A stretch of 64,000 nucleotides of DNA from assembly GCA_963749595.1 (NCBI GenBank), contig CAVVNJ010000001.1, positions 1,376-65,375 on the forward strand, written 5' to 3'. Below, piece by piece: positions 16,411-24,044 of the stretch (position 1 is its first letter; each line of letters opens with the position of its first letter). The DNA is from Candidatus Woesebacteria bacterium (lineage in GTDB: Bacteria > Patescibacteriota > Microgenomatia > UBA1400 > UBA1396). Made by a program: the position numbers and the translations under genes. The notes beneath the pieces are model-generated. The model was not told where the DNA came from and ran no database searches. It saw nothing but the letters and a program-made list of their open reading frames with translations.

Positions 16411-16914
16411 ATGGAAAAGGTCAAGCTTACCACCATCGACTCCGCCGCACGGACGCACCAAATCAGGCTTACTGAATCAGGGCACTATCGAATCGAGATC
16501 ATCGCCGAGGGGGCAGAAATCGAGATCAAAGGCGGCTGGCACACCGTTGGCAAAGAAAACGTCTCGATAATTCTGGAGATCGTTCATCGCGCCCGGCATA
16601 CCCGCTCCCGCACCTTACTCCGCGGCGCTGCCGCTGGCCAGTCACAAATCACCCTCTCCGGCACCATCATCATCGAGCCGGGCGCGCAAAACACCAACGC
16701 CTTTCTCACCGAAAATATCCTCCTCTTGTCCGATCAGGCCAGTGCCCAAGCCGTTCCCGATCTGGAAATCCAAGCTAATGAGGTCAAGTGCTCGCACGCC
16801 GCCACCGTCAGCAAGATTCCGGAAGAACATCTTTTTTATCTTCAGTCGCGCGGCCTCGATCGGAAGACGGCTGAGGAATTAATCGTCAACGCGTTTTTGG
16901 CGGAGACACTTTAG
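16411..16914 (+). CDS. sufD: short SufD-like protein
   Basis: 167 aa containing only the C-terminal beta-helix part (..QANEVKCSHAATVSKIPEEHLFYLQSRGL..). Lies directly after sufB. Confidence 0.7.
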   Translation: MEKVKLTTIDSAARTHQIRLTESGHYRIEIIAEGAEIEIKGGWHTVGKENVSIILEIVHRARHTRSRTLLRGAAAGQSQITLSGTIIIEPGAQNTNAFLTENILLLSDQASAQAVPDLEIQANEVKCSHAATVSKIPEEHLFYLQSRGLDRKTAEELIVNAFLAETL

Positions 16915-18394
16915 AATGTTGCTCCTCCATCAACCCCGCAAAGCCAATCGCCCCTTTTTTATTTTTCCGATGCTCTTCCGGCCGGAAATTAACCACTGCT
17001 GACAGTAAATCCTCATGGGAAACAGTTTTTTTCACCTTGCGCCGGAAGACATCACCTTTGGCCCGGTCGTTTAGTAGTAGTTTTAATAACCCCTCGATGT
17101 CCGCGCCGGTAAAACCTTCCGATTTTTTGATGATTTCCGGCCATTGCACAGTTCGGAAGATTCGTCGGTTAGCCTCGCGCTCGATGCGCCGAATATGAAT
17201 CCGGAAAATATCTAATCTGGCCTCTGCATCCGGTAAATCCACATGAACAATCTGATCGAATCGTCCAGGACGCAGCAGCGCCTTGTCCAGCAACTCCGAA
17301 TGGTTGGTGGCACCAATCAGCGTCACCTTACCACTGGCCTTCATACCACTCGTGCGTTGGAAAAGAATACTCTGCACCGATTTTCTGGTTTCGTGCGACA
17401 TGGTACTGCGTTGGCCAAAAAGGCCCTCAATCTCATCGATAAACAAAATTGTCCGACCGGGACGGCGGTCGGCATCGTCAAAGAATGCAGCCATAAACTT
17501 TTCCGAGTTGCCCAGCCACATATCATAAATCTGCTCGGGTGAAATGGAAACGAAAGTCACACCTGCTTCATTAGCCAAAGCCTGAACCGACATTGATTTT
17601 CCGGTTCCAGGCGGACCCTCCAACAAAATTCCGGCGGGCGGCTTAATTCCCCAACGTTTGTAGATTTGGGGATCACGAATACCGGCGGCCAGAGCCATCA
17701 GTTCTTCCTTGAGTTGGTGATTACCACCAATATCGGCAAAAGTGATCACCCCGGCATCACGCGCGGCTTTTTCAGCTTGTCGAGCCGCCGCCTCCGCCAA
17801 CTTTCTCTCCCGCTCGGTCGGCTGAACCGGCGGCGTCAAGACCAATTCTTGATCCGGAGCCAAACGCCCGGAATTCAGGTAAAGTTGCTCAATCACCTCC
17901 TGTAAAAAAGTCGCTAAATCCGTCATTACCCGGTGCAGTTGCCGCCGATCAATCGATGGCGCTCCGATTAATCTCAATTCTTTTCCCAAGAAGTTAACAC
18001 TGCCGGTAGAAATCCGGAAACCATCACTCAGCGCTTCCAAGGTGAGCGGGGTTTTCCCCGCCTTGAATATCGGGAAAAAACCCTCATAACGGCAATCAAA
18101 TATCTGCCCCAGCTGGGAGACCAGATCGGCCATCATCGACTCATGAAGCATCTTGACGGGATAAACATCGACATAAGCCTGAAAATCTTTGTTTTGACCC
18201 GGCTGCACCCAACCTAAGGCACTTTTTAGCGGCGGCTGCAAATTGGCGTCCAGAATAAAAAATTCCTCCCCCGCCAACATCAACTCCGTCATCCGTTCAA
18301 TGTTATTAATTTCAACGAGCGTACCGTATTCCCAAGGGGTGTTATCCGTCTTTTTGGGAAAATTATCAACTTCACCTTCGGGTCGTTTTGGCAT
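16886..18394 (-). CDS. AAA+ ATPase (classic clade, single AAA module) with unassigned ~230-aa N-domain
   Basis: 502 aa with GILLEGPPGTGKS (Walker A), ILFIDEIEGLF (canonical Walker B) and ATNHSELLDKALLRPGRFD (SRH). A charged linker ERERKLAEAAARQAEKAARD is present. Confidence 0.85.
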   Translation of the reverse strand: MPKRPEGEVDNFPKKTDNTPWEYGTLVEINNIERMTELMLAGEEFFILDANLQPPLKSALGWVQPGQNKDFQAYVDVYPVKMLHESMMADLVSQLGQIFDCRYEGFFPIFKAGKTPLTLEALSDGFRISTGSVNFLGKELRLIGAPSIDRRQLHRVMTDLATFLQEVIEQLYLNSGRLAPDQELVLTPPVQPTERERKLAEAAARQAEKAARDAGVITFADIGGNHQLKEELMALAAGIRDPQIYKRWGIKPPAGILLEGPPGTGKSMSVQALANEAGVTFVSISPEQIYDMWLGNSEKFMAAFFDDADRRPGRTILFIDEIEGLFGQRSTMSHETRKSVQSILFQRTSGMKASGKVTLIGATNHSELLDKALLRPGRFDQIVHVDLPDAEARLDIFRIHIRRIEREANRRIFRTVQWPEIIKKSEGFTGADIEGLLKLLLNDRAKGDVFRRKVKKTVSHEDLLSAVVNFRPEEHRKNKKGAIGFAGLMEEQHSKVSPPKTR

Positions 18395-18406: not shown

Positions 18407-19918
18407 TCAGCGATGACTTCGCTGTTTTGGTTTAGTGACGGTCATGGTTTCTGAGGCAATCTGGAAGCCCAGCGGTCCCTTTTTGGTTTCGGTAGGGTGC
18501 GCTTTCTCCCCCTGCAGATGCTTCAGCATCATGGCTTGAGTTACCAAGTCGCGATCGTTGCCGCCGCCAAGCATGGCTTTCTTGGAGGCTTGGCGCTTGG
18601 CCGCCTCCACCGCCACCGCGATACCGGCCTGGCTCATTCCCTCCGATATATCCAAAAGCTCTTTCCAGTTTAATTGATCAAAGACTTTGGCACCTTCCTC
18701 GGCTTCAACACGGGCAAAATAGAAACTGAACAAGGCTTTGCGATCATTGCGCGACGGTAAACCAAAGCTCACTCTCTCATCAAAGCGGCCGGGACGACGC
18801 ATGGCTGAATCGATTTGGTCGGGTTTATTGGTCGCGGCCAAAACCATCAGGTTATCACTCTTTTTTAATCCGTCCAGATAGACCAGCATCACCTGCATCA
18901 CCCGCTGACCAACCTCATGCATCCGATCGTCGCGCGAACCCAGGAACAAATCAAAGTCGTCAAAGAAGATGATGGTAAAAACCCCTGGGGATTGTTTTCT
19001 GGCTTCTTCAAAAACTTCCTTCAGCGCCTGCTCAGCCTCACCGACATACTTGGTAAAAATGTCGGCGGCAATGATTTCCACAAAGCGGCATTTAGCCTCG
19101 TTAGCCGTGGCCTCAGCCATCAGCGATTTTCCGGTTCCGGGCGGTCCTTCCAGCAACAAGCCTTTGGGAATCTTGTAGCCGACTTTCTTCCGCAACACCG
19201 GATCCTTAATCGCCCTTACTAGCACCAGAAAATCATCCTTAATCTCCTGATTGCCAACAATATCAGCGAAAGTCCGACCTCCACCGATAATCTCCGGCTC
19301 TTCAACTTTTGGTTTGGCTTCCGATTCCGGTTTCTTAGCCCTTTTCGGCCCGGTAGCAACTTTCTGATTCTGATTTGGAGCGGGTAACTTAATCTGGAAA
19401 ATTGCCTCCGGCGGCGTCAAATCCTGATTGATGTAAGCGTGCGTCACCACGTCCTGAACAAAGGCCGCTAAATGGTGCAGAGTTTTATGGATCGTGGGCA
19501 CATTGGAGGTACCGATCGCCACGATACGGAATCCTTGGAAACGGGTTGGCTCCAGGGCGAATTTAATCCCGCCCTGGGATGCAAAAACGGCAAAACCATC
19601 TTGGACTTCCAGTTTGTAGAAAGACGAAAGCGTGTTGATCAGCTTATTAACGTTAATCGATGAGCGGCGAGCAAAAAGATTGTTGATCGATACGGTCACC
19701 TGGAACTCGCCAACACCGGGAATCAATTCGGCCTTCATTCGCGTCAGAGGGGATTGATCATCGTAGTATTCATCACCCAGGACAATCGGCACCCCTGCCT
19801 TAATTGCCTCAAGAAACTTTTCGGTCAGATCCACAATCTGAACTCGAAAACCTTGGGGAAGGCGTTCCTTCCGCTCAGATTGTGTCTCTCTGTTAGGTTT
19901 CTCCGGCTGATGCGCCAT
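18407..19918 (-). CDS. AAA+ ATPase paralog with variant Walker B
   Basis: 503 aa with GLLLEGPPGTGKS and IIFFDDFDLF (DD instead of DE), plus ATNKPDQIDSAMRRPGRFD. Same architecture as the downstream paralog, separated from it by a 12-nt gap. Confidence 0.85.
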   Translation of the reverse strand: MAHQPEKPNRETQSERKERLPQGFRVQIVDLTEKFLEAIKAGVPIVLGDEYYDDQSPLTRMKAELIPGVGEFQVTVSINNLFARRSSINVNKLINTLSSFYKLEVQDGFAVFASQGGIKFALEPTRFQGFRIVAIGTSNVPTIHKTLHHLAAFVQDVVTHAYINQDLTPPEAIFQIKLPAPNQNQKVATGPKRAKKPESEAKPKVEEPEIIGGGRTFADIVGNQEIKDDFLVLVRAIKDPVLRKKVGYKIPKGLLLEGPPGTGKSLMAEATANEAKCRFVEIIAADIFTKYVGEAEQALKEVFEEARKQSPGVFTIIFFDDFDLFLGSRDDRMHEVGQRVMQVMLVYLDGLKKSDNLMVLAATNKPDQIDSAMRRPGRFDERVSFGLPSRNDRKALFSFYFARVEAEEGAKVFDQLNWKELLDISEGMSQAGIAVAVEAAKRQASKKAMLGGGNDRDLVTQAMMLKHLQGEKAHPTETKKGPLGFQIASETMTVTKPKQRSHR

Positions 19919-19993: not shown

Positions 19994-20812
19994 ATGGCTA
20001 AATCCCGCTCCCATTCCGAAACTCGCCGCCCTTTTCCAGAGGACGAAACCTCACCCTACGGTCTGTTTGCCATCACTTTTCTCAATCAAGCCGGCGAGGC
20101 GGAGCCAATTTTTAGCGACCAACTGGGTACTCTGGTGAACAAAGTAGTTCAGCGCGCCGGTGAAATCAGAACCGGAGCACAATCCGACGACCTGGTCCTC
20201 ACCAATCGCCGCGGGACTGAAATTTTCAGCTCCCAACTAATCGTTCGTTACCCGTTCCTGCGCCGAATGGTCAATTTAATGATGGTCAAGCACGCGGGTC
20301 AAATTCGTAAAGGCGACGGGGCCGATTACCGCGAACACCCGCTGGAGGTAGCGCACATCTTGGCGCACTTCAATTTTGGAGCCGAGGTCATCGCGGGTGG
20401 TCTGGGACACGATCTGCTTGAGGATACTGAAGCTACCAAGGAGGAAATTTTGGCCGCTAGCACGCCAGAAGTACTGCGAATCATCCGCGCGGTTTCCGAT
20501 GATCGTTCACAAACTGATTGGTGGCAACGCAAGCTCGCGCACATCGAATCAATTCGCCGGGGCGGGGGAAAACCCGTGGCCGTGATGGTAGCGGATCATA
20601 TTTCCAACCTCCGGGCTGCGCTCGATACTTCCTCCAAGGAAGGGGAACAGTTTTGGCTAAAATTCAACGCCGCTAAATCCGATAAGCTACGCTACGAACA
20701 AAAAGCTCTTAACCTGGCGATGAATACTGTGAAAACTCCCGAAATGGCGGCGATGGTAACGGAATTTGCAGGACTGGTTGGCCAACTGGCCAAGATTGTC
20801 GGCAATCGATGA
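19994..20812 (+). CDS. HD-domain protein, SpoT/Mesh1-like (p)ppGpp hydrolase domain
   Basis: 272 aa with HAGQIRKGDGADYREHPLEVAHIL...GLGHDLLEDTEATKEEI. An N-terminal extension of about 100 aa is unassigned. Confidence 0.7.
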   Translation: MAKSRSHSETRRPFPEDETSPYGLFAITFLNQAGEAEPIFSDQLGTLVNKVVQRAGEIRTGAQSDDLVLTNRRGTEIFSSQLIVRYPFLRRMVNLMMVKHAGQIRKGDGADYREHPLEVAHILAHFNFGAEVIAGGLGHDLLEDTEATKEEILAASTPEVLRIIRAVSDDRSQTDWWQRKLAHIESIRRGGGKPVAVMVADHISNLRAALDTSSKEGEQFWLKFNAAKSDKLRYEQKALNLAMNTVKTPEMAAMVTEFAGLVGQLAKIVGNR

Positions 20813-20860
20813 GCTCCCAACCCGACGGTCAATGCAGGTTCCTCATTGATGGCGCAAGTA

Positions 20861-20890
20861 TTGACAAATCGCCAATTCCGCTGCTATAGT
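20861..20890 (+). promoter_or_regulatory. sigma70-like promoter candidate upstream of the HerA-like gene
   Basis: TTGACA (20861-20866), an 18-nt spacer, then TGcTATAGT (-10 at 20885-20890, with an extended -10 TG). Confidence 0.35.
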
Positions 20891-21014
20891 TGTGTTCAGC
20901 AAGTAATTCCTCGTGTGTGGGGTTCCGTAGGTTCCTCGTAAATAGCGCACGGGGTTTTGTTTTTCTTAAGGGAACAAAGGATTTTCCTCGATAATCAACT
21001 TTTCCAAGGGATCC

Positions 21015-22415
21015 TTGTCCTGCCAAATAGGTGAAATATTTGGGGTTCAATCCAAGAAGATTTTTCTCGTTAAGTTGTTCGAAGACAGAAAAAGCATTAA
21101 AAAGTTTGACATTGTTAAATTTAGATATTCGATGCAGGACTCAAGTGATTTTGTAATCATCGGGATTGTTTTTGATACCTATCTGCTTAATCAGGAAAAA
21201 TGGGCTAAAGTTTTACAGCTGAAAGAACCAGAGAATTCAGATGAGAAACTAGACAAAAACGTCGTTTATAAAATAACGGACAGATCAAAATGCAGATCAC
21301 TGAGTGCTGAAATAAAAGTTGACAGGTTTGTAGGTGTTGTTATTGATGGTTCAACCATAGGGAAAATAAAATTTGAGTATTCAAAAAAGACAGACGACCT
21401 ACAGGAGGGTGACCTTCTAGAACTAGAAGTTGGAGAAAAACGATTATTCTATCAAGTGATTAGCGGAACCACTGAAAAAGAGAAACTTGAAGCTAGAAAT
21501 GAAACGGGTTTTATTGACGGTGAAGCCATTCAACTTGGAGAGTGGCAGAGCGATCAATTATCATTTCAAAAATTTGGGTGGGTACCATCTATAAATACAC
21601 CGATATTTAAGGCCGATACATCAGATCTGACTGTTAATAGCTTTGAGTACCCTCAGTATAAACTTGGTGTTATCCCGGGTACCACTTTGCCGTCGGTAGT
21701 CAATTTGAGTGAAGCAGTTAGCCATCATACAGCCATATTAGGCGTTACTGGTTGTGGAAAAACATTTTTAACTCAAGAGATAATTGAAAAGCTTTTACAG
21801 GATACAAGAGTAATATGTATCGATTTTACCGGTGAATGGAAAAAGAAGCTGGATTCTTCTAAATACCAAACAATTAGTAAAGAAGATATAGATACTTATC
21901 TAGCTGGCTCAGATCAAAAAGTAGGTATTTTTGAGCTACCCGCTTTAAGTAACACAACCGATGTATTAAAAGAAACTCAGGGTTTTCTAGAAAAAGTGTT
22001 CAATTACGCAAAAACAAAATACGATGAAAATACACCAGTTAGGGTCGCCCTTATACTGGAAGAGGCGCACACAATTACTCCGGAAACAAGCTTCCTTGGA
22101 GATATGGGTGACTACTCAAACAATAAGGCCTTAGTTAATAAAATGACTCAGGTTGCGCTTCAGGGTAGAAAGTATGGTGTTGGGTTGCTCGTAATAGCTC
22201 AACGAACTGCCAATGTTTCCAAAACAGTCTTAACACAATGTAATACTGTTATTTGTTTTCAGGCATTTGATGAGACAAGCTTTACATTCTTGGGGAATTA
22301 TGTTGGTAAGGATATGGTTCAGGCTTTACCAAACTTGAAGCAGTACCACGCCGTAGTTGCAGGTAAGGCAGTTAAGTCCAACATGCCCATGATTGTTGAC
22401 CTTAAAAGAGAATAA
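21015..22415 (+). CDS. HerA-like (DUF87/FtsK-HerA superfamily) ATPase
   Basis: 466 aa with a TTG start. An N-terminal barrel-like region is followed by ILGVTGCGKTF (Walker A) and VALILEEAH (Walker B). The gene is markedly AT-rich (about 37% GC by sampled lines) against about 50% in the flanks. Confidence 0.8.
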   Translation: MSCQIGEIFGVQSKKIFLVKLFEDRKSIKKFDIVKFRYSMQDSSDFVIIGIVFDTYLLNQEKWAKVLQLKEPENSDEKLDKNVVYKITDRSKCRSLSAEIKVDRFVGVVIDGSTIGKIKFEYSKKTDDLQEGDLLELEVGEKRLFYQVISGTTEKEKLEARNETGFIDGEAIQLGEWQSDQLSFQKFGWVPSINTPIFKADTSDLTVNSFEYPQYKLGVIPGTTLPSVVNLSEAVSHHTAILGVTGCGKTFLTQEIIEKLLQDTRVICIDFTGEWKKKLDSSKYQTISKEDIDTYLAGSDQKVGIFELPALSNTTDVLKETQGFLEKVFNYAKTKYDENTPVRVALILEEAHTITPETSFLGDMGDYSNNKALVNKMTQVALQGRKYGVGLLVIAQRTANVSKTVLTQCNTVICFQAFDETSFTFLGNYVGKDMVQALPNLKQYHAVVAGKAVKSNMPMIVDLKRE

Positions 22416-22517
22416 GATGTTAGTTTCGCCAACATTGTGTGCAAAGTTCACAGCTCGAGCAAAACTAAACATTGTTGGCATTTGTCATTGTTCTGAAATA
22501 CGAAAATTCTAGCACGA

Positions 22518-23228
22518 ATGTATACTCTAATTATGCCCACCAAACTCTCCCGCTCCAAACTCGAACTCTTATTCGACTGCCCCCGCTGTTTCTGGCTCTA
22601 CGCCGGCAAAGCCATCGCCCGTCCTTTCGGGGCCCCCTACACCATCAACAACGCCGTCGACTTCATGCTTAAGAAGGAATTCGATGAACACCGCCAATCC
22701 GGCACCGCCCACTACCTAATCGAACGCGAGGGCATCGACGCCATACCCTTCCTCCATAAAGATATCGACCGGTGGCGCCACAACTTCACCGGCATCCAGC
22801 ACATTCACCAGGAAACCGATTTCCTCGTTTTCGGCGCCGTTGATGACATCTGGGTTGATTCCAATGGCCAGCTCATCGTCGTCGATTACAAAGCCAGCGG
22901 AGCCAAAGAAGGGGAGTTGTATGACTCCTACAAACGTCAGATGGAGATCTACCAGTGGTTGTTGCGCCAAAATGGTTTTGAAGTTCTAGACCGGGGCTAT
23001 TTCGTTTACTGCCGGGTCAATTACCATGAAGGCTTTCACCAGGGTGAGATGAAGTTTGACATCAAGCTGCAGCCCTATGACGGCGACGCTTCTTGGGTGG
23101 AAAATAAAATTCGCGAAGCGCGGCAAGTTCTTGACCACCCCATTCCGACTGCCGCCGAACAGTGCCAGTACTGTCGCTACCGGCAACGGGCCGCTGAATT
23201 CGGTGACCAGCAACAACACCTCTATTGA
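22518..23228 (+). CDS. PD-(D/E)XK nuclease, Cas4/RecB-like with Cys pairs
   Basis: 236 aa with CPRCFW near the N-terminus, GAVDDIWV, VVDYK, QMEIYQWLL and a C-terminal CQYCRY. This is the motif order of Cas4-like nucleases with a 4-Cys cluster. Confidence 0.7.
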   Translation: MYTLIMPTKLSRSKLELLFDCPRCFWLYAGKAIARPFGAPYTINNAVDFMLKKEFDEHRQSGTAHYLIEREGIDAIPFLHKDIDRWRHNFTGIQHIHQETDFLVFGAVDDIWVDSNGQLIVVDYKASGAKEGELYDSYKRQMEIYQWLLRQNGFEVLDRGYFVYCRVNYHEGFHQGEMKFDIKLQPYDGDASWVENKIREARQVLDHPIPTAAEQCQYCRYRQRAAEFGDQQQHLY

Positions 23229-23282
23229 ATTCCCTATTGGACAGAGTAGAATGTACGTTTTGTCGCAGAAAGAAAGACTTAT

Positions 23283-23642
23283 ATGTCCATCATTAGTCGT
23301 GAAAAATTGTTCCATCATTCCAAGGCGTCTCCGCGCGAGGAAATCTTGCAAAAGCTCACCGAACACGGTCAGGCCGTTCCCAGTGACCAACCGGAAGAAA
23401 TAAAGCATTTCCTCGTCCGACTTTACACCGAGGATATAACCTCCGCCTTGCAATACGCTTTGAACTTTCAGATTGACGTTGAGAATTTCTCCCGACTAAA
23501 CCAGCGCATCGTTTCCCAGGCTGGTGGTTATACTCCTGGCGACACCCTGAGTCAACGCGTGGTGGAAGTGCTGATCAAAATTAGTAAAAACCCTGAGCTT
23601 CACCTAAATGAGTTACTGGCCCAGTCAACTGCTCACCGTTAA
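23283..23642 (+). CDS. hypothetical protein
   Basis: 119-aa ORF, helical-looking. No family recognised. Confidence 0.45.
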   Translation: MSIISREKLFHHSKASPREEILQKLTEHGQAVPSDQPEEIKHFLVRLYTEDITSALQYALNFQIDVENFSRLNQRIVSQAGGYTPGDTLSQRVVEVLIKISKNPELHLNELLAQSTAHR

Positions 23643-23699
23643 TTCCGATTGACAGTTTAACCGCCTTGGCGCATCATTCCCCAAAATGGAAAGGTTCAG

Positions 23700-24044
23700 A
23701 TGCTACCTTCGGAATACCGGACTCCCTATGAAGTGGTGACCAATAATGACCACTTGGCCAAAGGAGTCGCTTACTACGTTAAAGAAATTGCCCGGCAGAA
23801 CGGCTTATTGCTCGGCACCGGCGAGAGGAGTCTTTTAGTGACTTCAATCGCCTCGGTGATCAAGCTGCTGAAAAACCATGGGTACTACGCCTACTTGGAA
23901 AGTTCGCAGCAGCTAGGCCTCACCACCGAGGCAAATTTTATTTTTGAAGATCGGGGCGCTGACAAGTCGGCTATCCAAACCAGACTGACACTAATTTCAG
24001 AAGATTATCAGGATCTAAAGTTTTTTGGCCAACCAAACCGCTGA
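23700..24044 (+). CDS. hypothetical protein
   Basis: 114-aa ORF. No family recognised. Confidence 0.45.
   Translation: MLPSEYRTPYEVVTNNDHLAKGVAYYVKEIARQNGLLLGTGERSLLVTSIASVIKLLKNHGYYAYLESSQQLGLTTEANFIFEDRGADKSAIQTRLTLISEDYQDLKFFGQPNR

What the first reader, a model, noticed from the sequence alone, without database searches (positions are those of the whole stretch)
20813..24044. Low-GC HerA-like ATPase next to a Cas4-like PD-(D/E)XK nuclease and two orphans: a candidate defence module or HerA-nuclease pair
The 466-aa HerA/DUF87-type ATPase (GVTGCGKT, LILEEAH) is about 37% GC, embedded in DNA of about 50% GC. The boundaries are sharp, at about 21050 and about 22470, which indicates recent horizontal acquisition. 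There is no NurA, SIR2 or DUF4297 partner. The next gene, 103 nt downstream, is a 4-Cys PD-(D/E)XK nuclease, followed by two unassigned small proteins. From established knowledge, HerA ATPases work with nucleases in end resection (HerA-NurA) and in anti-phage systems (SIR2-HerA, DUF4297-HerA). A HerA plus Cas4-like pairing would be an undescribed variant. The caveat is that the nuclease has host-like GC, so the adjacency may be coincidental.
Basis: partly seen in the sequence, partly recalled or inferred. Interest (0 to 1): 0.6.

Follow-up and report, generated by a model that had tools for sequence, protein, structure and literature searches.

The report
Truncated mobile HerA ATPase beside solo-Cas4
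The low-GC "HerA" gene is the membrane-anchor-less back two-thirds of a highly mobile ATPase that normally sits inside restriction-modification operons, and it has landed next to an unrelated stand-alone Cas4-like nuclease, so the two are probably not a new two-gene defence system.

Summary
The ORFs, motifs and GC dip are real. The 466-aa "HerA" ORF (21015-22415) is not a whole gene. Its relatives are 650-705 aa with an N-terminal 5-6-helix membrane domain. The window copy starts at residue 202, exactly where the cytoplasmic HerA barrel begins.

DNA identity to the closest relative (94.5%) switches on at 21023 and off at the stop codon 22415. The intact family is AT-rich everywhere (26-40% GC, below its flanks in 43/46 loci), has spread across many phyla, and sits mostly inside type I/IIG R-M operons and defence islands.

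The Cas4-like nuclease (22518-23228) is intact and has host-like GC. It belongs to the large "solo-Cas4" family of CPR bacteria, whose neighbours vary widely.

An ATPase next to a Cas4-like nuclease occurs in only 2 of about 60 other ATPase loci and in 0 of 88 other nuclease loci. In those two loci the nucleases are 48% and 22% identical to the window's, while the ATPases are 98% and 81% identical. This looks like shared defence-island neighbourhood, not an obligate pair.

The fragment shows no decay (34 synonymous : 2 non-synonymous changes on its own branch). Either the truncation is very recent or the soluble remnant is still used. The two small ORFs are lineage-specific orphans.

The parts
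20813..21022 (.). Host-like intergenic DNA (47% GC) between the HD_4 gene and the foreign fragment. It holds no remnant of the missing 5' part of the ATPase or of any partner gene.
   Evidence: The ATPase frame is closed by six stops. blastn and tblastx against all 150 fetched loci find nothing. The antisense 73-aa ORF has no Pfam or PHROG hit.
20861..20890 (+). Near-consensus sigma-70-like promoter (TTGACA, 18-nt spacer, TG, TATAGT; 11/12 matches), about 125 nt upstream of the fragment's TTG start.
   Evidence: This is a consensus match only; function was not shown.
21023..22415 (+). Horizontally acquired AT-rich fragment: codons 202-664 (HAS-barrel-like beta domains plus HerA/FtsK P-loop ATPase) of a ~660-aa membrane-anchored DUF87/HerA-clade ATPase. 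It is read as ORF 21015-22415 from a fortuitous TTG. The N-terminal 5-6 TM helices are missing.
   Evidence: 94.5% nt and 98% aa identity to L001 10603-11995, with abrupt ends. Homologs are 650-705 aa. TM helices lie only in residues 1-185 of the full-length proteins. AF2 model and HerA fold hits. dN/dS 0.023; window branch 34 syn: 2 nonsyn.
22416..22517 (.). AT-rich (38% GC) spacer of unknown origin between the ATPase stop codon and the nuclease start.
   Evidence: No similarity to any fetched locus.
22518..23228 (+). Intact stand-alone Cas4-like (PDDEXK_1) 4-Cys nuclease of the CPR 'solo-Cas4' type, with host-like GC.
   Evidence: Pfam, PADLOC and NCBIfam hits. More than 8000 homologs, the top ones 70-85% identical in Microgenomates-type bacteria. 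All invariant residues are kept. The family profile weakly hits Cas4 structure 4ic1, E=0.007. Literature: PMC5704561.
23283..23642 (+). Orphan ORF 1 (119 aa), lineage-specific. Not a conserved neighbour of either the ATPase or the nuclease.
   Evidence: Only 3 non-self hits (E<=1e-3) among 1.84 billion representative proteins. No Pfam, PADLOC, NCBIfam or PHROG hit. A singleton in the neighbourhood clustering.
23700..24044 (+).
   Evidence: No family hits. A singleton in the clustering. Not similar to the 231-aa ORF of L001.

Best explanation
Window 21023-22415, probably with the AT-rich spacer to 22517, is a recently acquired piece of a mobile defence-island gene.

The intact gene encodes a ~660-aa HerA-clade hexameric-type ATPase. 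An N-terminal 5-6-helix anchor tethers it to the membrane. It travels between phyla and usually sits inside type I or type IIG restriction-modification operons.

In this genome only the cytoplasmic part (residues 202-664) is present. The membrane anchor and any accompanying R-M genes are absent, either deleted or never integrated.

The fragment lies directly upstream of a separately evolving stand-alone Cas4-like Fe-S PD-(D/E)XK nuclease. This type is common in CPR/Patescibacteria and acts without a fixed partner, in DNA-end processing for repair and/or defence.

The adjacency reflects a shared preference of both genes for variable, R-M-rich regions, not an obligate HerA-nuclease machine.

Shown: the truncation, the foreign origin, the family contexts, the intactness of the nuclease, and the lack of co-occurrence.

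Inferred: that the intact ATPase acts as a membrane-bound DNA translocase on incoming DNA alongside R-M; that the remnant is non-functional or only marginally functional; and the biochemical role of the nuclease.
For: Truncation:
- All close homologs are 650-705 aa. The window ORF aligns to residues 202-664 only.
- TM helices occur only in the missing part.
- The upstream frame is closed.
- The DNA junctions are abrupt at 21023 and 22415.

Mobility:
- Family members are >=51-85% identical across Patescibacteria, Bacteroidota, Gammaproteobacteria, Elusimicrobia, Omnitrophota and Ignavibacteria.
- Family GC is 26-40%, below the flanks in 43/46 loci.

Context of the ATPase:
- 13/52 loci hold at least 2 type I R-M subunits, often with the ATPase between hsdM/hsdS and hsdR.
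- The Pfam census of neighbours is dominated by Methylase_S, N6_Mtase, MmeI and HsdR.
- Other neighbours are defence candidates: PDC-S02, PDC-S05/RhuM, UzuA and a DrmD-like helicase.

No obligate pairing:
- A nuclease of this family sits next to the ATPase only in L001 and L147, out of about 60 loci, by BLAST, HMM and jackhmmer.
- 0 of 88 nuclease loci carry the ATPase.
- Identities are discordant: ATPase 98% against nuclease 48% (L001), and 81% against 22% (L147).
- GC is discordant: 37% against 53%.

The nuclease stands alone: its neighbours range from R-M genes to MGMT, UDG, ExoVII and PGI. This agrees with published solo-Cas4 phylogenomics in CPR (PMC5704561).

Other decayed copies of the ATPase exist: L037 and L038 are split, and L040 is both 5'-truncated and split.
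Against: - The fragment shows no decay at all. It has no stops or frameshifts in 1.4 kb, intact Walker A/B motifs, and 34 synonymous: 2 non-synonymous changes on its own branch.
- It begins exactly at the domain boundary, so it encodes a complete soluble HerA-like module.
- A near-consensus promoter-like site lies upstream.
- The ATPase-then-Cas4-like-nuclease order recurs in 3 of about 8 loci of the closest clade (window, L001, L147). Other PD-(D/E)XK-type proteins follow the ATPase elsewhere: DUF2779 in 4 distinct loci, and NucS_C/PDC-S02 in L148.
- No sister genome was available for an empty-site comparison.
Confidence: 0.62

Rival explanations
1. The pair is a genuine functional HerA-nuclease module. 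In the closest Patescibacteria clade the ATPase works with a downstream Cas4-like PD-(D/E)XK nuclease: the translocase feeds DNA ends to the nuclease, as in HerA-NurA or DUF4297-HerA. The window's soluble, anchor-less version is an active derivative paired with the resident nuclease.
For: - The ATPase is followed by a PDDEXK_1 nuclease in the window, in L001 (2-nt gap) and in L147 (97-nt gap, against 102 nt in the window).
- Other nuclease-type neighbours follow the ATPase elsewhere: DUF2779 and NucS_C/PDC-S02.
- Strong purifying selection on the window branch (34:2).
- The truncation falls exactly at the domain boundary.
- A promoter-like site lies upstream.
- All structurally characterised defence HerAs use a nuclease or NADase partner (fold hits).
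Against: - About 50 of about 60 intact ATPase loci have no such nuclease.
- 88 nuclease loci lack the ATPase.
- The three adjacent nucleases are mutually very divergent (48%, 22%) while the ATPases are 81-98% identical. There is therefore no co-inheritance.
- The GC step between the two genes appears in both the window and L147.
- Known partners dock on the N-terminal face of HerA, which in this family is occupied by the membrane anchor.
- hhalign gives no support for a DUF2779-nuclease relationship (probability 1.3%).
Confidence: 0.2
2. The low-GC segment is a metagenome assembly chimera: DNA from a co-occurring low-GC organism spliced into this contig, not a real insertion.
For: - The segment has razor-sharp boundaries, no target-site duplication and no flanking repeats.
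- It shows zero amelioration and zero decay.
- An independent Logan contig ends only 146 nt past the ATPase stop.
Against: The identical 466-aa product is found on three contigs, including two Logan per-run assemblies. The one whose gene map was returned has the same SufBD - AAA - AAA - HD_4 - ATPase order, so the 5' junction is reproduced and the contig extends across the 3' spacer. The same architecture, a low-GC ATPase abutting a higher-GC Cas4-like nuclease, also exists in unrelated assemblies (L147).
Confidence: 0.08
3. Both genes are the last survivors of one larger R-M-type cassette (helicase/REase - MTase - ATPase - nuclease, as in L001 and L147) that was inserted whole. A deletion then removed everything upstream of ATPase codon 202.
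For: - L001 (HsdR - HsdM/S - ATPase - nuclease) and L147 (PLD-SNF2 - MmeI-type MTase - ATPase - nuclease) have exactly this order.
- L058 and L061 show the nuclease as the terminal gene of R-M operons without the ATPase.
Against: - Nuclease GC (53%, GC3 67%) is host-like or higher, while the ATPase is 37%.
- The 98% against 48% identity discordance with L001 argues that the two genes did not arrive together.
- No R-M remnant lies in 20813-21022.
- No R-M gene was seen elsewhere in the window. This rests on a Pfam summary limited to the top 25 families.
Confidence: 0.1

Closest known systems
Defence-associated HerA ATPases (SIR2-HerA/Nezha/Gao19, DUF4297-HerA) and archaeal HerA of HerA-NurA
   Same: They share the fold, a HAS-barrel-like beta domain plus a RecA-like P-loop ATPase. 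The top Foldseek hits are 8woc/8wld/8wiv, 4d2i, 9x1m and 8zir. Sequence-level hits are to HerA chains and to PADLOC and NCBIfam HerA models. The family also resides in defence islands.
   Different: No SIR2, DUF4297 or NurA partner is present in the window or in about 60 family loci. The intact family carries an N-terminal 5-6-TM membrane anchor that these HerAs lack. NCBIfam scores are far below the cut-offs: 57-69 bits against 800-970. The window copy is truncated.
Membrane-anchored FtsK/SpoIIIE translocases and type IV coupling proteins (VirD4/TrwB); archaeal Ced DNA-import ATPases
   Same: The overall topology of the intact family is the same: an N-terminal membrane domain followed by a cytoplasmic FtsK/HerA-superfamily ATPase. 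There are weak hits to TrwB_AAD_bind (23.7 bits), CedD and CedB.
   Different: Those hits cover only the Walker A region. The fold search ranks HerA, not FtsK or VirD4, first. No conjugation, division or Ced genes are nearby. The context is R-M operons.
'HerA/FtsK capture systems' of conflict loci (Krishnan et al. 2024, PMC10853773; BRC systems, PMC12839542)
   Same: The concept matches: a HerA/FtsK translocase recruited into R-M-like defence loci and proposed to capture invading DNA and hand it to nucleases.
   Different: The described systems have fixed multi-gene architectures (DndFGH; PglZ/DUF6079/STAND...). This family is a solitary, membrane-anchored gene inserted into ordinary type I/IIG R-M operons. 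The terms 'membrane' and 'transmembrane' each occur only once in PMC10853773, and not in connection with a membrane-anchored HerA.
Solo-Cas4 / pfam12705 Cas4-like nucleases of CPR and DPANN (Hudaiberdiev et al. 2017, PMC5704561)
   Same: The window nuclease is a ~225-aa PD-(D/E)XK nuclease with 4 Cys and no cas genes nearby. This type is abundant in small-genome CPR bacteria and sometimes lies next to R-M genes.
   Different: It is not CRISPR-associated. TIGR00372 cas4 scores 37 bits against a cut-off of 65. Its Cys pattern is CxxC...CxxC. Function has not been tested.
MADS (methylation-associated defence system) component mad8
   Same: The ATPase core matches the PADLOC mad8 model (1.7e-17). 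The L001 MTase matches mad2 and MADS2 weakly.
   Different: Only the ATPase core aligns. None of the other mad genes is present. NCBIfam MADS2 scores 115 bits against a cut-off of 720.

Membership tests
HerA clade of the FtsK-HerA superfamily | HAS-barrel-type N-terminal beta domain followed by a RecA-like ATPase with Walker A/B motifs | tested here: met
   Pfam DUF87 at 52 bits, above the 23.2 cut-off. GVTGCGKT and LILEEAH are present. The AF2 model has beta domains at 202-430 and the ATPase at 446-660. Foldseek top hits are all HerA, 3.5e-13 to 1e-10.
HerA-NurA end-resection machinery | Adjacent NurA nuclease (and usually Mre11/Rad50) genes; equivalog-level similarity to HerA | tested here: not met
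   No NurA, Mre11 or Rad50 in the window neighbourhood or among neighbours in about 60 family loci. NF040819 scores 57 bits against a cut-off of 970.
SIR2-HerA / DUF4297-HerA anti-phage systems | SIR2 or DUF4297 effector gene adjacent to herA; equivalog-level HerA | tested here: not met
   No such partner is present. NF042943 and NF042944 score 69 and 61 bits against cut-offs of 800 and 850.
Intact membrane-anchored DUF87 family (this family) | Length of ~650-705 aa with an N-terminal 5-6 TM domain | tested here: not met
   The window ORF is 466 aa, aligns to residues 202-664 only, and has no TM segment. It is a truncated member.
Proposed two-gene HerA + Cas4-like module | Conserved co-occurrence and co-inheritance of the two genes across relatives | tested here: not met
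   2 of about 60 ATPase loci and 0 of 88 nuclease loci show the pairing. Identities are discordant: 98/48% and 81/22%.
Proposed two-gene HerA + Cas4-like module | Physical or functional interaction of the two proteins | not testable with these tools
   This needs co-purification, complex prediction or genetics.
Cas4 (CRISPR adaptation nuclease) | PD-(D/E)XK core plus four Fe-S-ligand cysteines | tested here: met
   D110, D123-x-K125, QxxxY, C21/C24/C216/C219 are invariant in a 21-sequence alignment and present in the window copy. Pfam Cas_Cas4 scores 26.5 bits, above the 22.7 cut-off.
Cas4 (CRISPR adaptation nuclease) | Location in a cas operon (cas1/cas2) or next to a CRISPR array; equivalog score | tested here: not met
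   No cas genes flank it. TIGR00372 scores 37 bits against a cut-off of 65. It is therefore a 'solo' Cas4-like protein.
Type I restriction-modification operon (as host of the ATPase) | hsdM, hsdS and hsdR adjacent to the ATPase | tested here: not met
   These genes are present in 13/52 relatives' loci and in L150/151. They are absent from the window: the upstream gene is HD_4 and the downstream gene is the nuclease. No MTase appears among the top 25 Pfam families listed for the window's ORFs of 150 aa or more.

The most novel reading that the evidence does not exclude
The membrane-anchored HerA family is an undescribed, widely transferred accessory of R-M systems. It would be a DNA translocase at the inner membrane that captures incoming DNA for restriction. 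In Patescibacteria it would cooperate with Cas4-like nucleases. The window's anchor-less copy would be a functional soluble HerA, newly coupled to the resident solo-Cas4 and expressed from the strong promoter-like site at 20861-20890. That would be a HerA-NurA-like resection or defence pair caught at its birth.
Probability: 0.12. Interest if true: 0.65.

Novelty: new member of a known kind. Interest (0 to 1): 0.3.

Why it matters
For this window the result is mainly corrective. What looks like a novel HerA-Cas4 defence pair is a gene fragment next to a common stand-alone nuclease.

The by-product is more interesting. The fragment's parent family is a solitary, membrane-anchored HerA-clade ATPase. 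It is 51-85% identical across distant phyla, persistently AT-rich, and embedded in type I/IIG R-M operons. It has no dedicated model in PADLOC, NCBIfam or Pfam, and I found no description of it in the searched literature. It is a reasonable candidate for an uncharacterised R-M accessory or defence gene, and cultured carriers exist for testing (Legionella pneumophila, Zobellia, Reichenbachiella, Flavobacterium).

The recurring position of CPR solo-Cas4 genes at the 3' end of R-M operons also bears on the open question of what solo-Cas4 does in CRISPR-less small genomes.

Tried and rejected
1. Empty-site comparison through the upstream HD_4 gene. Its best non-self homolog is only 43% identical and lies on a 1.7-kb contig, so no sister genome was available.
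2. Search for a truncated partner or gene remnant in 20813-21022 and 22416-22517. blastn and tblastx against 150 loci, plus Pfam and PHROGs on the antisense ORF, found nothing.
3. Orphans as a split version of the 231-aa or 230-aa ORF that follows the nuclease in L001 and L147. There is no similarity.
4. DUF2779 as a remote homolog of the nuclease. hhalign probability is 1.3%, with only a 29-column N-terminal motif match. The idea is left open, not adopted.
5. Membership of Hma, MADS or DISARM for the cassettes. There are only partial, sub-threshold hits.
6. Target-site duplications or flanking repeats at the junctions, and tRNA or integrase genes nearby. None were found.
7. Low GC as a clock for recent transfer. 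Rejected, because the family is AT-rich in every host.
8. Organism name via cluster look-up. No names or accessions were returned.
9. Literature searches for a described membrane-anchored, R-M-embedded DUF87/HerA. No matching description was found.


Full report
**Observation**

- HD_4-domain gene, 19994-20812
- 466-aa ORF, 21015-22415 (TTG start)
- 236-aa ORF, 22518-23228
- Two small ORFs, 23283-23642 and 23700-24044
- pyrG from 24111

The 466-aa product hits Pfam DUF87/HerA central domain and many PADLOC HerA models. The 236-aa product hits PDDEXK_1 and Cas_Cas4. The small ORFs hit nothing in Pfam, PADLOC, NCBIfam or PHROGs.

The GC dip is real and unique in the window. The fragment is 37.2% GC (GC3 32%). 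The window as a whole is 51.3%, and the neighbouring genes are about 53.5%.

**The ATPase gene is a fragment**

A search of 5.8 billion proteins gave 2543 relatives. The best 120 are all at least 64% identical, and almost all are 650-705 aa long.

The closest relative, P0002, is 664 aa. It aligns at 98% identity, but only from its residue 202 onward. The missing 200 residues carry 5-6 predicted transmembrane helices in every full-length member examined. The window protein has none.

An AlphaFold model of the full-length relative (pLDDT 70) has four parts:
- A helical membrane bundle, residues 3-181
- A low-confidence linker, residues 195-198
- Beta-barrel domains, residues 202-430
- The P-loop ATPase, residues 446-660

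Foldseek against the PDB returns only HerA proteins at the top: SIR2-HerA, Sulfolobus HerA, HerA-NurA and DUF4297-HerA.

At the DNA level, window 21023-22415 is 94.5% identical to L001 10603-11995. Identity starts abruptly inside the gene and stops at the stop codon. Upstream, the reading frame is closed by six stops. The 210-bp intergenic stretch has no similarity to anything fetched.

So the window holds the complete cytoplasmic HerA-like module, cut exactly at the domain boundary and lacking the membrane anchor.

**What the intact family is**

I fetched 53 loci from species-representative genomes and 10 more around close relatives. The family occurs in Patescibacteria, Bacteroidota, Gammaproteobacteria (including Legionella), Elusimicrobia, Omnitrophota, Ignavibacteria and Spirochaetota, at 51-85% identity.

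Its GC is 26-40% whatever the host. It is lower than the flanks in 43 of 46 loci, including a 54%-GC Parcubacteria contig. Low GC is therefore a property of this mobile gene and not, by itself, a date stamp.

Neighbourhood clustering and Pfam censuses show no fixed partner:
- The recurrent neighbours are type I R-M subunits. At least 2 of HsdR, HsdM and HsdS occur in 13/52 loci, often with the ATPase wedged between hsdS and hsdR.
- Other neighbours are MmeI/type IIG enzymes, other REases, RhuM (PDC-S05), Fic, HEPN, DUF2779, PDC-S02 and UzuA.

The family has no dedicated model in PADLOC or NCBIfam. HerA equivalogs score 57-69 bits against cut-offs of 800-970. I found no description of it in the literature searches.

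The nearest published concept is the "HerA/FtsK capture system" idea: translocases recruited into R-M-like loci to capture invading DNA (PMC10853773, PMC12839542).

Split or truncated copies occur elsewhere. L037 and L038 are split, and L040 is both 5'-truncated and split.

**The nuclease**

The 236-aa protein is intact. In a 21-sequence alignment it keeps every invariant residue, including C21, C24, C216, C219, D110, D123-x-K125 and the QxxxY motif. The family profile weakly matches the Cas4 structure 4ic1.

It has more than 8000 relatives. The best are 70-85% identical, ~224 aa long, and come from Woese-, Levy- and Daviesbacteria and similar lineages.

Its closest relatives are not pyrG neighbours:
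- L058: directly after a PLD-SNF2 helicase and an MmeI-type MTase
- L061-63: after type III Mod-Res
- L064-66: near a HinfI system

Across 80 further metagenomic loci its neighbours are extremely variable. The tight neighbours mix R-M and defence genes (GmrSD, TaqI_C/Eco57I, Res, HNH, OLD, TIR) with repair and housekeeping genes (MGMT, UDG, ExoVII, alkylation repair, PGI, G6PD, MgtC).

This matches the published picture of solo-Cas4. It is over-represented in small CPR/DPANN genomes that lack CRISPR. It is mostly vertically inherited, occasionally lies next to R-M systems, and its function is unknown (PMC5704561).

**Is it a pair?**

Outside the window, an ATPase followed by a Cas4-like nuclease occurs in two loci:
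- L001: ATPase 98% identical; nuclease starts 2 nt after the ATPase stop.
- L147: ATPase 81% identical; 97-nt gap.

BLAST, an HMM of the nuclease family and jackhmmer find no other case among about 60 ATPase loci. None of the 88 other nuclease loci has the ATPase.

The nucleases in the three cases are only 48% and 22% identical to each other's counterparts, while the ATPases are 81-98% identical. In both the window and L147 there is a GC step between the two genes (37 to 53%, and 35 to 49%). The genes were therefore not inherited together.

L147 has the same architecture as L058 plus an inserted ATPase. Together these loci fit a picture in which solo-Cas4 genes often flank the 3' end of R-M cassettes in Patescibacteria, and the ATPase is an optional passenger of those cassettes.

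**What keeps the rival alive**

- The fragment shows no decay. dN/dS against L001 is 0.023.
- With L055 and L147 as outgroups, the window branch carries 34 synonymous and only 2 non-synonymous codon changes.
- The fragment starts precisely at the barrel domain.
- A near-consensus promoter-like site (TTGACA, 18 nt, TG, TATAGT) lies 125 nt upstream.
- Nuclease-type proteins of other families (DUF2779, NucS_C/PDC-S02, and HsdR itself) follow the ATPase in further loci.

I put the functional-pair reading at about 0.2.

An assembly chimera is unlikely, at about 0.08. The identical 466-aa product is on three contigs, including two Logan per-run assemblies. The one whose gene map was returned shows the same SufBD - AAA - AAA - HD_4 - ATPase order. 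It cannot be excluded without reads.

**Mechanism, stated with its basis**

Shown: the intact family is a HerA-fold P-loop ATPase with a multi-pass membrane anchor. It is mobile and R-M-associated.

Inferred from the HerA/FtsK superfamily's established role as hexameric dsDNA pumps: the intact protein translocates or holds incoming DNA at the inner membrane and so assists restriction.

Inferred: without the anchor and without R-M neighbours, the window copy most likely does nothing. At most it acts as a soluble ATPase.

Inferred from the conserved PD-(D/E)XK and Fe-S residues, and from Cas4/AddB biochemistry: the nuclease processes DNA ends on its own.

The orphans are lineage-specific. Orphan 1 has three weak relatives among 1.84 billion representatives. 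They are not part of any conserved arrangement.

**Verdict**

The locus is a truncated, recently acquired member of an uncharacterised but HerA-clade defence-island ATPase family, lying next to an ordinary CPR solo-Cas4. The window feature itself is of low interest. The parent family is a modest lead worth a dedicated survey.

Noticed in passing
window 16886-18394 (-) and 18407-19918 (-): Two tandem paralogous ~502-aa genes. Each has an uncharacterised ~230-aa N-terminal region followed by a classic AAA (PF00004) ATPase domain. They lie just upstream of the HD_4 gene, and the same pair occurs in the independent Logan contig.
   Followed up: no
window 21023-21060; L002-L057 equivalent positions: The first ~35 nt of the cytoplasmic part of the ATPase gene (encoding QIGEIFGVQSKK) are 81-97% identical at the nucleotide level across phyla. 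This is far more conserved than the upstream TM-domain DNA. The window's truncation point coincides with the start of this block, which may be a recombination hot spot.
   Followed up: partly
L002-L054 (ATPase gene against flanks): The ATPase family is persistently AT-rich (26-40% GC) in hosts of 27-54% GC. It is below its flanks in 43/46 loci, so it does not ameliorate.
   Followed up: yes
L058 6001-10546; L061 6001-11501: In two different R-M contexts (type IIG and type III), the solo-Cas4 is followed by an ~810-820-aa protein and a ~425-aa Trypsin_2 protease. The large protein is SMC_N/AAA_21 and LmuB-like in L058, and DUF2254 in L061. This may be a conserved downstream module.
   Followed up: no
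L040 8004-9320; L037 8004-10058; L038 2184-4189: Other decayed copies of the ATPase exist. L040, on a gammaproteobacterial chromosome, matches only residues 231-661 and is split in two. L037 and L038 are split by frameshifts.
   Followed up: partly
window 22518-23228: The window's own nuclease sequence was not returned from the 5.8-billion-protein collection (best hit 85%). The adjacent ATPase and HD_4 proteins were found at 100%. The independent Logan contig stops 146 nt after the ATPase stop. This may reflect a gene-calling gap or strain heterogeneity at the 3' junction.
   Followed up: no
L001 12756-13451; L147 8778-9470: In both loci where the ATPase precedes a Cas4-like nuclease, a ~230-aa ORF follows the nuclease. 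The L001 ORF has weak PycTM-like hits (4.8e-5). The two ORFs are not detectably similar to each other or to the window orphans.
   Followed up: partly
L134 (c82, 193 aa) against window 19994-20812: A homolog of the window's HD_4 protein lies three genes downstream of the solo-Cas4 in metagenomic locus L134. This is a faint hint of conserved linkage between HD_4 and the nuclease.
   Followed up: no
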